Assembly (NCBI GenBank): GCA_016204695.1
Contig: JACQKD010000014.1
Location: 18,562 to 82,561, forward strand
Reading direction: 5' to 3'
From: Candidatus Kaiserbacteria bacterium
GTDB lineage: Bacteria > Patescibacteriota > Minisyncoccia > Phycocordibacterales > UBA918
Length of the DNA: 64,000 bases
The notes beneath the pieces were generated by a model, which was not told the origin of the DNA, did not search any database, and saw only the letters and a list, made by a program, of their open reading frames with translations. The translations under genes were made by a program, and so were the position numbers. Positions 6,654 to 10,136 of this stretch are shown one piece after another. Position 1 is the stretch's first letter. Every line of letters begins with the position of its first letter.

Positions 6654-9600
6654 ATGACCGAAAATATCAAACTGTTTTCAGAGATTTCCAAGGACGATGC
6701 GGCGAGTGCCGGGGGGAAGGGTGCGTCGCTCGGTGAGATGACACAAGCGGGGATACCGGTGCCGCCGGGATTTGTGGTACTCGCTGGGGCATTCGAGCAG
6801 TTTCTCGAGGAGACGGATCTGCTTGCGGAAATAGATACGATTCTCCATACGGTACAGAAAGAAGAGATGCATACGGTGGAACATGCATCCGAGAAAATTC
6901 AACAGCTTATCTTGGAAGCCAAGATGCCTGCCGACATTGCCGCAGAAATCGAGAAACAATTTAAAGGGCTGGACACCCCGTACGTCGCAGTCCGATCAAG
7001 CGCGACCGCCGAAGACAGCTTGAGCGCCGCGTGGGCGGGACAGCTCGACAGTTATCTCAACACGACTGCCGATACGCTTCTTCAGAATGTTCAGCGCTGT
7101 TGGGCGTCACTTTTTACGCCGCGCGCTATCTTCTATCGTTTCGAGAAAGATCTGCATACGACGAAAATCTCCGTCGCAGTCGTCGTGCAGAAGATGGTCG
7201 AAAGTGAAGTGTCGGGCATCGCCTTCTCGGTGCATCCGGTGACGGAGGATCGCAACCAGCTCATTATCGAAGCGGGCTTCGGCCTCGGCGAGGCGATCGT
7301 GTCGGGACAGATCACGCCGGACAGCTATGTGGTCGAAAAGAACCCGCGCCGCATTATCGATGTCAGTCCAAGCACGCAGAGCCGCGCGCTCTACCGGGCG
7401 GCAAACGGCGGGAATGAATGGAAAGACATTGCCGAGCCGGAGGCATCCTCGCAGGTGCTTACCGAAGAGCGGATATTGGAACTGGCCGGACTGATTCTCA
7501 ACATAGAAAACCATTACGGTTTCCCCTGCGACATCGAATGGGCGTTTGAAAAAGGGACCTTCTATATTGTCCAAAGCCGCCCCATTACGACACTTTCTTC
7601 CGCATCCCAGGCCACCTCTTTGCCCTTGTCTCTTGATCCGAAGAACTACACCTATGTCGGTTTATACAAATCACCGCCGTCCGCTCTTTGGTATTGGTCA
7701 TCCTGGTATGACGCCGAGCTATCTAAAGAACTGGATATCCCCGAAGAGTTCGAGGCATATTTCGGATTGCGCGGGGGGTACAACTGGTGCCTAAAGAAGA
7801 CAGAGGAAGGTTTTAAAGAATTGGTTGCGGCCAAAGTGGAGGCGGGCGATGTCGGGTACTTCGATTCGATCTATGCGACGCTCGACCGGGAATTCGAGCA
7901 TGCAGAAACATTTGCTAAAGCCCTCGGCACGAAAGTCGAGCGCACAAGCTACGAGGAGTTGGTGGCGCATGGCCGCAAGCTCGCATTCTTCTGCTTTATC
8001 AACTGGCAGATTTCGCAGCAGTTCGATCCTATTTTTAAAGATGCAGCACAAAGTGCCGGGATCAGCGAAGACGCCATACAGAGCTATGTACCCCTCCCCA
8101 AGACGCGTTTGAATGAGCAGCATGACGACGTCGTGGAAATAAAGAAGATGATCGAGTTGAAGGGTCTGTGGGAGCTTCTCAAAGAAGATGCGACCAAAGC
8201 TATATCGGAAATGCAGTCCGATTCGGAGTTGCAGGGACGGATAGACCGCCATCTCAAGACATATGCGTGGCTCAATATCCAAAATTGGATCGGCGAGCCG
8301 CTGACACTTGAAAAGCTCCTGGAGCAAATGACGCTCATTACCTCACACGAGGCAGATCCCATCAAGGCTGCTCCGTCTGGATTCGAGAAATATGTACATA
8401 TCGCCGAACGGATCGGCAAGCTGCGCAATGCCGGGATCGAGGACTTCTCCATCTATATGCACGCCGTCATGCCGCATCTCGAGCAACTTGCAGAACGCGC
8501 AGGTATCACGTACCGAGACCTTCTTCTGCTCACGCCGCTTGAAGTATTTTCCGGAGATTCGCTTGCAACGGATATGCGCGAGAAAATCTCTCGTCGACAA
8601 AACGACAATTGGTGCGTCTATCCGAATCTGGAGACCCGAAGCGTGGAGATAACCGACGACACGGAGGTGATCGCCAATATCGCCGAGCGCTTCTTGCCGA
8701 AGGTCGAAGTCTCCGAGGATGGCAGTATCAAAGGACAAGTGGGTAACAAAGGGAAGGCGATCGGTCCTGTTCGCGTCATTATTGCCACCGATGATTTTCA
8801 TAAGATGCGACCGGGAGATGTGCTTGTCACGCCGATGACCACGCCGGACTTCGTACTCCTCATGCAACAGGCGGCGGCAATCGTGACCGACATGGGCGGA
8901 TTGCTCTGTCATGCGGCAATCGTCTCGCGCGAGCTCAATAAGCCCTGTGTGATCGATACGAAGTTTGCGACACAGATTCTCCGCGACGGCGATATGGTGG
9001 AGGTCGACGCCGACAACGGCGTCGTGCGCCCGCTTATAAACGAGATCACCACCATCGACTGGGAACTGTGGATACGCAGGCAAGATCAGCCGCCATTTCT
9101 TATTTCACTATGGATGCCGATGGAAGGACCGATGATGGCGTCCCGCATTGGCGGAGGATTTACAAAACAGCTCTGCTTGCGATACGCCGACGACACCTTG
9201 TGGATCCGCTCGTCTTCGGACATGAAGCAACTGATGCGGAATATTCGAGAATTTCTCGCCGGTCAGTCTTCGGGTGCTCTGGCAACATTGTTTGCGACTG
9301 CAGATACAATCGCAGAACAGACTCCGGAGTTTATGAAAGAAGTACAGAGGTACCCGGAAGAAAAGTTACTCTCCGATTTTGAGTCGCTCATCAAACGTGT
9401 GGTGGAGATAGCGTTCTATACCACTTCGATGCCGTATTTCGCCATGGAGGCAATCGGCACAGATGAGGTCGAGATACCCAATGCGGAGCAGATACGCACC
9501 GGAGCCGAGAAACTCCGCGCAACGTCCTTTTACGTCGAACTTAAGACAAAAGTACTCGACCGGATAGTCCGGGCATTCGCCAAGAAATATACTATCGACG

Positions 9601-10136
9601 CACATTTGGTGTTCTCCATGACAGTGGACGAAATGCGCGAGACAATGAAAGCCGGTATGCTCGCTGTCGCCTCAAGTGAGCTGGTATCGCGAGAAAATTG
9701 CGCCCATTGGTACATGGGCGACAAAATAGTTTTTTCGACCGATCCGAAACTGATGGAAACGCTCCGAAACAAAGTCATCGACGTACCGGATGACGCGAAA
9801 AGCACCCGGTCCGTCAAAGGCGCTGTCGCTTTCCCCGGAAAGGTGACGGGTACGGCGCGGATCGTCATGGTGCCTGCAGATATGGCGAAAGTACGAAAAG
9901 GAGACATTCTCGTGGCGCCGACGACCAATCCTACGCTTATGCCCGCGCTTATGACTTGTGGCGCGATCGTCACCGACGAGGGCGGCATCGCAAGCCATGC
10001 CGCGATCGTCTCGCGCGAGCTTCGAAAGCCCTGTGTCGTGGGCACCAAATACGCGACACATATCATCGCCGAAGGAGATACGGTGGAAGTCGACGCGGAT
10101 CAAGGTATAGTGAGAGTATGCCTACCAAGTACATAA
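6654..10136 (+). CDS. multidomain PEP-utilizing-enzyme family phosphotransferase: N-terminal PPDK_N ATP-grasp domain plus two PEP-utilizing mobile (swivel phosphohistidine) domains; rifampin-phosphotransferase/PEP-synthase-like
   Basis: N-terminus GGKGASLGEM...VAVRSSATAEDS...VVVQKMV matches PEP synthase/PPDK nucleotide-binding domain. Two copies of the mobile domain are present: ...GKAIGPVRVI...GDVLVTPMTTPDFVLLMQQAAAIVTDMGGLLCHAAIVSRELNKPCVIDT and ...GKVTGTARIV...GDILVAPTTNPTLMPALMTCGAIVTDEGGIASHAAIVSRELRKPCVVGT. There is no PEP/pyruvate TIM-barrel domain. Confidence 0.85.
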   Translation: MTENIKLFSEISKDDAASAGGKGASLGEMTQAGIPVPPGFVVLAGAFEQFLEETDLLAEIDTILHTVQKEEMHTVEHASEKIQQLILEAKMPADIAAEIEKQFKGLDTPYVAVRSSATAEDSLSAAWAGQLDSYLNTTADTLLQNVQRCWASLFTPRAIFYRFEKDLHTTKISVAVVVQKMVESEVSGIAFSVHPVTEDRNQLIIEAGFGLGEAIVSGQITPDSYVVEKNPRRIIDVSPSTQSRALYRAANGGNEWKDIAEPEASSQVLTEERILELAGLILNIENHYGFPCDIEWAFEKGTFYIVQSRPITTLSSASQATSLPLSLDPKNYTYVGLYKSPPSALWYWSSWYDAELSKELDIPEEFEAYFGLRGGYNWCLKKTEEGFKELVAAKVEAGDVGYFDSIYATLDREFEHAETFAKALGTKVERTSYEELVAHGRKLAFFCFINWQISQQFDPIFKDAAQSAGISEDAIQSYVPLPKTRLNEQHDDVVEIKKMIELKGLWELLKEDATKAISEMQSDSELQGRIDRHLKTYAWLNIQNWIGEPLTLEKLLEQMTLITSHEADPIKAAPSGFEKYVHIAERIGKLRNAGIEDFSIYMHAVMPHLEQLAERAGITYRDLLLLTPLEVFSGDSLATDMREKISRRQNDNWCVYPNLETRSVEITDDTEVIANIAERFLPKVEVSEDGSIKGQVGNKGKAIGPVRVIIATDDFHKMRPGDVLVTPMTTPDFVLLMQQAAAIVTDMGGLLCHAAIVSRELNKPCVIDTKFATQILRDGDMVEVDADNGVVRPLINEITTIDWELWIRRQDQPPFLISLWMPMEGPMMASRIGGGFTKQLCLRYADDTLWIRSSSDMKQLMRNIREFLAGQSSGALATLFATADTIAEQTPEFMKEVQRYPEEKLLSDFESLIKRVVEIAFYTTSMPYFAMEAIGTDEVEIPNAEQIRTGAEKLRATSFYVELKTKVLDRIVRAFAKKYTIDAHLVFSMTVDEMRETMKAGMLAVASSELVSRENCAHWYMGDKIVFSTDPKLMETLRNKVIDVPDDAKSTRSVKGAVAFPGKVTGTARIVMVPADMAKVRKGDILVAPTTNPTLMPALMTCGAIVTDEGGIASHAAIVSRELRKPCVVGTKYATHIIAEGDTVEVDADQGIVRVCLPST

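What the first reader, a model, noticed from the sequence alone, without database searches (positions are those of the whole stretch)
6654..10136. 1160-aa PEP-synthase-like protein with an ATP-grasp domain, two swivel His domains and no PEP/pyruvate-binding domain
Residues ~1-310 match the PPDK/PpsA nucleotide-binding domain (GGKGASLGEM, VAVRSSATAEDS). There is a first swivel domain at about aa 700-790 (LCHAAIVSREL) and a second at the C-terminus (ASHAAIVSREL), each preceded by an unrelated ~300-aa helical region. Through the first His domain the order and size (~800 aa) parallel rifampin phosphotransferase. The extra domain-plus-His unit appended at the C-terminus looks like one of the downstream stand-alone genes fused in cis.
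Basis: partly seen in the sequence, partly recalled or inferred. Interest (0 to 1): 0.65.

Follow-up and report, generated by a model that had tools for sequence, protein, structure and literature searches.

The report
One ATP domain, six phosphohistidine modules
This gene from an ultra-small (CPR) bacterium encodes one ATP-binding domain followed by two 'substrate-binding domain plus phosphate-carrying histidine domain' units. Four more such units lie in the next four genes, so the locus looks like a multi-headed relative of rifampin phosphotransferase, of unknown substrates, that databases wrongly label PEP synthase.

Summary
The ORF at 6654..10136 (1160 aa) has a PPDK_N ATP-grasp domain (aa 18-320, E 4.5e-97) and two PEP-utilizers swivel domains (His753, His1115). 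It has no PEP/pyruvate TIM barrel. Genes B-E (10118..15098) each encode an unknown domain X plus one swivel-His domain.

The architecture N-(X-H)n is a large uncharacterised family. It is found mostly in CPR bacteria and DPANN archaea, in at least 592 species genomes. Every degree of fusion occurs, from a stand-alone ATP-grasp gene with up to 7 stand-alone X-H genes to a single 2969-aa protein with six units. There is one ATP-grasp per locus in 78 of 79 loci.

The swivel domains are conserved (45-63% identical) while the X domains have diverged into dozens of types. Histidine-phosphatase genes are tightly linked to the clusters.

Most likely mechanism: a ping-pong dikinase in which one ATP-grasp charges several phosphohistidine carriers, in cis and in trans, and each carrier delivers phosphate to its own acceptor site. 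The substrates are unknown. I rate it a new variant of a known kind, interest about 0.65.

The parts
6654..10136 (+). Gene A, 1160 aa: ATP-grasp - X1 - swivel His - X2 - swivel His (NCBI HY416_03785, 'hypothetical protein', Candidatus Kaiserbacteria)
6654..7613 (+). ATP-grasp nucleotide-binding domain (aa 1-320). K22, R114, S133 and E295 align with RPH-Lm K22, R117, T136 and E297.
7614..8717 (+). X1 (aa 321-688): long-type acceptor domain, mostly helical, RIF-binding-domain-like
   Evidence: AF2 model, pLDDT 88; Foldseek end-to-end alignment to RPH; cluster of 61 orthologous domains
8718..9041 (+). Swivel phosphohistidine domain 1 (aa 689-796), catalytic His753 (codon 8910-8912)
9042..9803 (+). 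X2 (aa 797-1050): short-type acceptor domain. R955 is invariant; E993 and R1013 are nearly invariant.
9804..10133 (+). Swivel phosphohistidine domain 2 (aa 1051-1160), catalytic His1115 (codon 9996-9998)
10118..11194 (+). Gene B, 358 aa: short X + swivel (His315); overlaps the end of A by 19 nt
11205..12644 (+). Gene C, 479 aa: long X (a type with no close relative in the sets examined) + swivel (His435)
12637..14079 (+). Gene D, 480 aa: long X + swivel (His439); overlaps C by 8 nt
14076..15098 (+). Gene E, 340 aa: short X (in the largest BLAST cluster of X domains, 101 of 314) + swivel (His297); overlaps D by 4 nt
5944..6561 (-). Histidine-phosphatase superfamily gene (His_Phos_1), divergent from A across a 92-nt spacer; probably an accessory part of the system
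   Evidence: Pfam E 1.9e-11; positional linkage of this family to the clusters in other genomes
4008..4841 (-). Second His_Phos_1 gene (a third lies just upstream of the window, L001 1999-2658)

Best explanation
Genes A-E encode a multi-acceptor, RPH-type histidine-swivel dikinase. The single ATP-grasp domain at the N-terminus of A binds ATP. It transfers the beta-gamma pyrophosphoryl or beta-phosphoryl group to the catalytic His of a swivel domain, releasing AMP and Pi. The two swivel domains of A are charged in cis (or across a dimer); the four stand-alone proteins B-E are charged in trans. Each charged swivel domain then docks back on the X domain it is tethered to and passes the phosphate to an acceptor bound there.

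The six X domains are six different old paralogue types, so the locus should phosphorylate about six different acceptors from one ATP site. By analogy with every characterised relative that has this acceptor fold, the acceptors are most likely hydroxyl groups of small molecules.

What is shown: the domain content, the catalytic residues, the fold relationships, the one-ATP-grasp-to-many-modules ratio and the fusion/fission pattern. What is inferred: trans-charging, the chemistry and the small-molecule nature of the acceptors. The linked histidine phosphatases probably either recycle the phospho-products or discharge the phosphohistidine; which of these applies is open.
For: (1) All parts of the RPH/PpsAB-type machinery are present and look intact. 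The ATP-grasp has K22, R114, S133 and E295 at the positions of RPH K22, R117, T136 and E297; three of these are invariant and S133 nearly invariant across 36 homologues. All six swivel domains keep GG-x-x-[CS]-H-A-A-I.

(3) A shared donor with divergent acceptors is what the conservation pattern predicts. The six H domains are 45-63% identical, whereas the X domains are barely detectable by BLAST.

(4) There is exactly one ATP-grasp per locus in 78 of 79 related loci, against 0-7 X-H units. The ATP-grasp is a stand-alone gene in 51 cases and fused in 29. Trans-charging is therefore obligatory in most genomes.

(5) Trans-acting precedent exists: PpsAB, CreHI and HpeHI are ATP-grasp proteins working with a separate acceptor-plus-swivel protein, and mutating the swivel His abolishes activity (PMC12167813).

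(6) A-E are packed with overlapping or 10-nt-spaced stop and start codons, which fits one operon.

(7) One Arg is invariant in X across five types (R955 in A). A phosphate-contacting Arg, R666, is essential in RPH.
Against: There is no biochemical evidence. No substrate can be named. The equivalence of the invariant Arg with RPH R666 could not be established: hhalign instead places the RPH motif GYREYPKY on the motif LYTTSMPY. The inter-domain geometry in the AF2 model is uncertain (pTM 0.60), and no model of an ATP-grasp:swivel complex was made. X shows no sequence similarity to the acceptor domains of HpeH/PpsA-alpha, because the PRK08296 hits cover only the swivel part. The linked His_Phos_1 genes have SixA (phosphohistidine phosphatase) as their weak best hit, which would fit a protein-phosphorelay reading equally well.
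Confidence: 0.7

Rival explanations
1. A battery of antibiotic- or xenobiotic-inactivating phosphotransferases. Each X-H unit would be a resistance enzyme like RPH, detoxifying host- or community-made compounds, and the diversity of X would reflect an arms race. This is a special case of the main mechanism with a specific biological role.
For: RPH is the closest solved structure. X types are highly diversified (75 communities among 484 domains). Some loci carry arrays of same-type paralogues, for example L078 with five units of one type. An ARG survey already scores 'rph' hits in CPR (PMC8651080).
Against: The NCBIfam RPH equivalog scores 425.9 bits against a cutoff of 999, and only the ATP-grasp and swivel regions contribute. 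The rifampin-contacting part of RIF-BD is not conserved in sequence. The modules are old and have orthologues across many CPR/DPANN lineages, which fits core metabolism better than niche resistance. The tight linkage to phosphatases would undo an inactivating phosphorylation.
Confidence: 0.12
2. A protein phosphorelay or regulatory histidine kinase system, like PTS Enzyme I to HPr or M. tuberculosis VadK. The swivel His~P would be passed to, or would regulate, protein partners bound by X. The neighbouring histidine phosphatases would act as SixA-like phosphohistidine phosphatases.
For: A PPDK-derived ATP-grasp + swivel protein acting as a regulatory histidine kinase is documented (VadK, PMC13400623). 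The profile of A1 matches EI N-terminal domains over about 200 positions, which reach the helical part upstream of the swivel (E 1.7e-10). The two His_Phos_1 genes next to A have SixA as their best NCBIfam hit. His_Phos_1 genes are strictly co-located with the clusters.
Confidence: 0.12
3. A genuine PEP synthase / pyruvate, water dikinase, as JGI and NCBI names suggest, whose pyruvate-binding part is either X or is encoded elsewhere.
For: The best NCBIfam and PDB sequence hits for the ATP-grasp and swivel domains are true PEP synthases (PRK06464, 536.5 bits; 8a8e, E 3.3e-94).
Against: No PF02896 TIM-barrel domain is found in A-E. Scores are below both PpsA equivalog cutoffs (536.5 < 598; 501.4 < 739.75). 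X is helical and RIF-BD-like, not a TIM barrel. Six different acceptor modules make no sense for a single substrate.
Confidence: 0.03
4. An assembly or gene-calling artefact: two adjacent genes read as one ORF.
For: Neighbouring units have overlapping stops and starts (4-19 nt), so a one-base error could fuse them.
Against: Multi-unit ORFs occur in 101 of the 120 best homologues, from many independent assemblies. They contain up to 6 units in GTDB genomes. Several homologues cover 99% of A with the same two-unit plan.
Confidence: 0.02

Closest known systems
Rifampin phosphotransferase (RPH-Lm; PDB 5FBS/5FBT/5HV1)
   Same: Same domain order through aa 796: ATP-grasp, helical acceptor domain, C-terminal swivel His. 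It is the same fold for all three parts and the only solved structure matching X. The ATP-site residues and the catalytic His are conserved.
   Different: RPH has one acceptor domain and one swivel per ATP-grasp. Here there are two in cis and four in trans. X is shorter (254-374 aa against about 430) and resembles RIF-BD in sequence only in its last ~75 residues. The RPH equivalog score is far below cutoff. The swivel and ATP-grasp domains are closer to true PEP synthases than to RPH.
Two-component small-molecule dikinases PpsAB (phenylphosphate synthase), CreHI, HpeHI
   Different: Those systems pair one ATP-grasp with one acceptor protein of about 600-650 aa. Here one ATP-grasp serves up to 7-8 acceptor modules of 340-480 aa, often fused. 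There is no detectable sequence similarity in the acceptor domain. The host range also differs (CPR/DPANN against Actinobacteria/Proteobacteria).
PEP synthase (PpsA) and pyruvate phosphate dikinase (PPDK)
   Same: Nearest sequence relatives of the ATP-grasp and swivel domains, and the same three-site swivel chemistry.
   Different: The order is ATP-grasp, swivel, TIM barrel. The TIM-barrel PEP/pyruvate domain is absent here and an unrelated helical domain sits in front of the swivel.
Prodiginine ligases PigC / RedH / HapC
   Same: The same ATP-grasp, middle domain, C-terminal swivel plan. NCBIfam hits of 375-389 bits come mainly from the terminal domains.
   Different: They have a single module, score far below cutoff (1300-1350), and use phosphorylation to activate a condensation reaction.
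PTS Enzyme I (N-terminal domain) and M. tuberculosis VadK
   Same: A swivel phosphohistidine domain next to a helical partner-binding region. They show that swivel-His proteins can act on proteins.
   Different: EI is charged by PEP through a TIM barrel, not by ATP. VadK has no X domain. Only the swivel part matches structurally.

Membership tests
RPH-type (PEP-synthase-like) small-molecule dikinases | N-terminal ATP-grasp (PPDK_N) with phosphate-positioning residues (RPH K22, R117, T136) | tested here: met
RPH-type (PEP-synthase-like) small-molecule dikinases | Helical acceptor domain with the RIF-binding-domain fold, placed between the ATP-grasp and the swivel | tested here: met
RPH-type (PEP-synthase-like) small-molecule dikinases | C-terminal swivel domain with the catalytic His in T/S-x-x-GG-x-x-x-H | tested here: met
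   Six of six domains: TD-x-GG-x-x-[CS]-H-AAI.
RPH-type (PEP-synthase-like) small-molecule dikinases | Arg-Glu dyad in the acceptor domain that holds the transferred phosphate (RPH R666/E667) | tested here: inconclusive
   X has one invariant Arg (A R955) and a nearly invariant Glu (E993).
RPH-type (PEP-synthase-like) small-molecule dikinases | One acceptor domain and one swivel per ATP-grasp (single-module enzyme) | tested here: not met
   Two modules in cis and four in trans in the window. Relatives have 1-6 per protein and up to 7 per locus.
Rifamycin-inactivating phosphotransferase (NF041857 / NF000283 equivalogs) | Full-length match above the curated cutoff, and rifampin phosphorylation | tested here: not met
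   425.9 bits against cutoff 999, and 298.4 against 1700. Activity is not testable here.
PEP synthase, pyruvate water dikinase (TIGR01418 / NF005057) | C-terminal PEP/pyruvate-binding TIM barrel (PF02896) and a score above cutoff | tested here: not met
   No PF02896 hit in A-E. Scores are 501.4 < 739.75 and 536.5 < 598.
Two-component dikinases (PpsAB / CreHI / HpeHI) | ATP-grasp and acceptor+swivel on separate polypeptides that act in trans | tested here: met
   B-E are stand-alone X-H proteins with no ATP-grasp. In 51 related ORFs the ATP-grasp stands alone. Trans activity itself is not testable here.
Two-component dikinases (PpsAB / CreHI / HpeHI) | Acceptor subunit homologous to PpsA-alpha/HpeH (PRK08296-type, about 600 aa) | tested here: not met
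   PRK08296 models match only the last ~110 residues (the swivel), at 64-106 bits against cutoffs of 578-730.
PTS Enzyme I | PEP-binding C-terminal domain and an HPr-binding helical subdomain | tested here: not met
Known anti-phage defence systems (PADLOC-DB 2.0) | Match to any defence-system protein model | tested here: not met
   0 hits for A-E and five neighbouring genes.

The most novel reading that the evidence does not exclude
CPR bacteria and DPANN archaea share, probably through cross-domain gene transfer, a modular 'phosphorylation hub'. One ATP-grasp charging station serves a shuffled set of up to about 8 acceptor-plus-phosphohistidine cartridges, with dedicated histidine phosphatases alongside. 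The hub would irreversibly trap or activate a panel of metabolites scavenged from the host (nucleosides, sugars, cofactor precursors), replacing the many dedicated kinases that these reduced genomes lack. That would be a previously unrecognised way to organise kinase specificity, analogous to the PTS but driven by ATP and soluble.
Probability: 0.25. Interest if true: 0.85.

Novelty: new variant of a known kind. Interest (0 to 1): 0.65.

Why it matters
Three reasons.

(1) Annotation. Many of these proteins carry source names such as 'phosphoenolpyruvate synthase / pyruvate phosphate dikinase' or 'PEP/pyruvate-binding domain-containing protein'. They lack the pyruvate/PEP domain, so reconstructions of CPR/DPANN metabolism that count them as a gluconeogenic step, or as rph resistance genes, are probably wrong.

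(2) Enzymology. A single nucleotide-binding domain that charges many different phosphohistidine carriers, in cis and in trans, extends the swivel-dikinase principle from one-to-one to one-to-many. It also provides a natural series from fully split to six-fold fused, which is well suited to studying how a swivel domain chooses its docking sites.

(3) Biology of ultra-small symbionts. The family is widespread, with at least 592 species representatives, and it is largely confined to lineages that depend on scavenged metabolites. Its substrates could therefore reveal what these organisms take from their hosts.

Tried and rejected
- Mapping RPH R666/E667/K670 onto X gave no significant or consistent placement, either by HMMER or by hhalign against an RPH fragment rebuilt from tool output. 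It is left open.
- The idea of 'one conserved set of about six substrate types per genome' is rejected. Some loci have all-different types, but others are arrays of one type (L078, L041, L060), and there are 75 communities among 484 X domains.
- The idea that the window's units are recent tandem duplicates, or evolve in concert, is rejected. Each H is closer to H domains of other genomes (60-85%) than to its neighbours (45-62%).
- PADLOC gave no hits.
- Conserved neighbours other than phosphatases were sought. The PNPOx-like gene, the two unannotated upstream genes (window 2423..3376 and 4860..5861) and DUF5680 do not recur, and M23 peptidase recurs only sporadically.
- The promoter/terminator scan of 5800-16900 found nothing above shuffled expectation for promoters.
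- Seven literature searches found no description of multi-swivel proteins. This covers only the held library and does not prove absence.
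Full report
**1. What is in the sequence**

The ORF 6654..10136 (+) is open for 1160 codons. Pfam finds PPDK_N at aa 18-320 (E 4.5e-97) and two PEP-utilizers stretches (combined E 1.2e-47). It finds no PEP-utilizers_C TIM barrel. An HMM built from the local swivel domains places them at aa 689-796 and 1051-1158, with catalytic histidines His753 (GGLLCHAAIVSRE) and His1115 (GGIASHAAIVSRE).

Against RPH-Lm, A's K22, R114, S133 and E295 fall on K22, R117, T136 and E297. 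These are the residues shown by mutagenesis or structure to position ATP and Mg2+ (PMC4844700). Three of them are invariant and S133 nearly invariant in 36 homologues.

The four following genes each consist of an unannotated N-terminal region plus one swivel domain with the same His motif:

| Gene | Coordinates | Length | Note |
|---|---|---|---|
| B | 10118..11194 | 358 aa | true ATG start, overlaps A by 19 nt |
| C | 11205..12644 | 479 aa | |
| D | 12637..14079 | 480 aa | |
| E | 14076..15098 | 340 aa | |

A six-frame scan finds no other ATP-grasp or swivel domain in the 64-kb window. The source is a Candidatus Kaiserbacteria (CPR) genome, where the protein is annotated 'hypothetical protein'.

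**2. The regions in front of the swivel domains ('X')**

The six swivel domains are 45-63% identical to each other, while the six X regions are barely detectable by BLAST. X regions cut from the 120 best homologues (314 domains) fall into two size classes, about 220-270 and 320-420 aa, and into at least 19 multi-member sequence clusters. The window's six X regions fall in six different clusters.

Profile-profile comparison links most of these clusters at 94-99% probability. The short class aligns to both ends of the long class, so long equals short plus an insert of roughly 130 aa. The two middle regions of gene A are therefore distant homologues, not unrelated.

AlphaFold2 models are confident: aa 1-796 has pLDDT 88.0 and pTM 0.60; aa 797-1160 has pLDDT 92.8 and pTM 0.85.

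- For the aa 1-796 model, Foldseek's best hits are the RPH structures, aligned end to end (E 7.6e-39, 25% identity). ATP-grasp-only targets reach about 1e-25. The RPH entry with the shortest deposited chain, 5fbu (733 residues), still scores 1.2e-19.
- At sequence level, an HMM of the short unit aligns with RPH 690-866 in one stretch (E 1e-29). The last ~75 residues of X are therefore recognisably homologous to the end of the rifampin-binding domain.

An X-only alignment across five types has a single invariant residue, Arg955 of A (motif E-x-x-R-x-x-S), and two nearly invariant ones, Glu993 and Arg1013. Whether Arg955 corresponds to RPH Arg666 could not be settled.

**3. The family**

All 120 best database homologues have one ATP-grasp followed by 1 to 4 X-H units. 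Unit counts were n=1 in 19 proteins, n=2 in 25, n=3 in 64 and n=4 in 13, counting the window's own protein (P0001) among the 120.

The best 80 are almost all CPR bacteria of many candidate phyla and DPANN archaea (Woesearchaeota, Nanoarchaeota, Micrarchaeota and others).

Locus anatomy in 79 of these genomes:

- 78 loci have exactly one ATP-grasp. It is a stand-alone ~320-aa gene in 51 cases and fused to units in 29.
- Units per locus range from 0 to 7, and many loci are cut by contig ends. Fifty loci have at least one stand-alone X-H gene.
- Fully split loci exist, for example L048 with seven X-H genes plus the ATP-grasp gene.
- Mixed loci exist, for example L024 with N-X-H-X-H plus four X-H genes, the same plan as this window.
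- Giant fusions exist: L044 has five units in 2713 aa and L050 has six units in 2969 aa.

A profile of the short X type alone finds 1,564 representative clusters (50% identity) at E <= 1e-3 among 1.84 billion. Most of the best 150 listed are 340-375-aa stand-alone X-H proteins.

**4. Evolution of the modules**

Each swivel domain in the window is closer to swivel domains in other genomes (60-85%) than to its neighbours in the window (45-62%). The six units are therefore old paralogues, not recent duplicates.

Types occur at any position in fused proteins. Loci differ in composition: some have all-different types and others have arrays of one type.

The identity profile between A and its closest homologue P0002 is:

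| Region | Identity |
|---|---|
| N | 75% |
| X1 | 64% |
| H1 | 82% |
| X2 | 18.5% |
| H2 | 49% |

The N-X1-H1 core is orthologous, but the C-terminal unit is a different module. Nineteen ~800-aa relatives consist of the N-X-H plan alone. The junction in A leaves only a few residues between the end of H1 (...GVVRPL) and the conserved start of X2 (IDWELW), which aligns with the N-termini of stand-alone units. Adjacent unit genes overlap by 4-19 nt, so fusion or fission needs only a small indel.

**5. Linked genes**

Directly upstream, on the opposite strand, lie two His_Phos_1 genes (5944..6561 and 4008..4841). A third lies just outside the window, and there is a HAD hydrolase at 690..1337.

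In the 80 related loci, 24 His_Phos_1-like genes were found in 20 loci. All of them lie inside the cluster span or within 2.5 kb of it, and none lies in the 575 kb of flanks between 2.5 and 10 kb. HAD-like genes show a weaker version of the same pattern. Phosphatases are thus a recurrent accessory.

The two His_Phos_1 genes nearest to A have SixA, a phosphohistidine phosphatase, as their best NCBIfam hit, but far below cutoff. No PADLOC defence model matches.

**6. Mechanism**

The best-supported reading is a ping-pong swivel dikinase like RPH and PpsAB/CreHI/HpeHI (PMC4844700; PMC12167813). ATP bound in the ATP-grasp is attacked at the beta-phosphate by the swivel His. The gamma-phosphate is released as Pi and AMP leaves. 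The phospho-His domain then swings to its acceptor domain and phosphorylates the bound substrate.

What is new is the ratio: one donor site for six carriers in this locus. The evidence for this is the one-ATP-grasp-per-locus rule, the existence of fully split loci in which trans-charging is the only option, and the contrast between conserved H domains and diverged X domains.

The acceptors are unknown. Every characterised enzyme with this acceptor fold acts on small molecules: rifampin, phenols, flavonoids (flavonoids from my own knowledge, not from the papers read here) and the prodiginine precursor. A protein-relay role, as in VadK or EI, cannot be excluded.

**7. Comparison and novelty**

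The protein is not a PEP synthase: it has no TIM barrel and scores below both equivalog cutoffs. It is not an RPH orthologue either (425.9 bits against a cutoff of 999).

It works like an RPH-type or two-component dikinase and shares the folds of all three parts. It fails the single-module feature of those families. Its ATP-grasp and swivel sequences are closer to true PEP synthases than to RPH.

I found no description of multi-swivel proteins in seven searches of the held library. An ARG survey lists 'rph' hits in CPR. I rate it a new variant of a known kind. It matters because it is widespread, systematically mis-annotated and confined largely to metabolically dependent ultra-small organisms.

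Noticed in passing
window 4008..4841 (-), 5944..6561 (-); L001 1999-2658; related loci L007-L077: Histidine-phosphatase (His_Phos_1) genes sit next to or inside these dikinase clusters. 24 genes in 20 of 80 loci all lie within 2.5 kb, and none lies in 575 kb of farther flank. The two nearest to gene A hit SixA weakly.
   Followed up: yes
window 159..683 (+), 690..1337 (+), 1351..1821 (+): A nucleoside 2-deoxyribosyltransferase-like gene (below the Pfam cutoff), a HAD phosphatase and a DUF5680 gene lie just upstream. HAD-like genes recur in 10 related loci, 6 of them between the dikinase genes. This is a possible link to nucleotide or nucleoside salvage.
   Followed up: partly
gene A aa 797-1160 versus P0002 (locus L002/L005): The closest homologue is 64-82% identical through N-X1-H1 but only 18.5% in X2 and 49% in H2. 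The C-terminal module has been exchanged, not inherited.
   Followed up: yes
L050 9812-18718; L044 4145-12286; L022 9965-17152: Giant single ORFs with six, five and four X-H units behind one ATP-grasp (2969, 2713 and ~2395 aa). All three are in archaeal (DPANN) genomes; the fully split loci seen were bacterial.
   Followed up: partly
loci L021, L022, L025, L027, L044, L075, L081 versus the window: Archaeal DPANN proteins are 49-71% identical (best segment) to this bacterial protein. That similarity between the two domains of life suggests gene transfer between CPR and DPANN.
   Followed up: no
window 12501..12503 (gene C Thr433) and 14958..14960 (gene E Thr295): Only units C and E have Thr two residues before the catalytic His (GGITCH, GGITSH). 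That is the position of the regulatory phospho-Thr in PEP synthase and PPDK. The other four units have Leu or Ala.
   Followed up: no
window 15061..15654 (+): A PNPOx-like (FMN-binding split-barrel) ORF begins inside the end of gene E; its real start is probably an internal Met near 15163. It does not recur next to the clusters in other genomes.
   Followed up: partly
window 15731..16735 (+); L003/L004 8629-9954: An M23 peptidase with a peptidoglycan-binding domain lies next to the cluster here, and also in a Paceibacterota locus that sits beside mraY-ftsW-murG. It was found in only one other of the 79 loci, so it may be coincidence.
   Followed up: partly
bioRxiv 10.1101/2023.11.21.568195 (supplementary figure legend): PPDK_N, HAD_2, NUDIX and Lysine_decarbox are among the 20 most frequent domains in giant proteins of predatory Omnitrophota. 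This is a similar domain company to that seen around this cluster.
   Followed up: no
loci L005, L037, L042, L047 and others (record titles): Several contigs carrying typical CPR-type clusters are titled 'uncultured Gammaproteobacteria bacterium' (TPA assemblies). The taxon label is probably wrong.
   Followed up: no
window 29032..29106 and 36423..36494: tRNA-Thr(CGT) and tRNA-Gln(TTG) genes. The rest of the window looks like ordinary CPR chromosome: CTP synthase at 34419..36083, an HtrA-like protease, GH18, M15 peptidase and an AIR-synthase-related gene.
   Followed up: no
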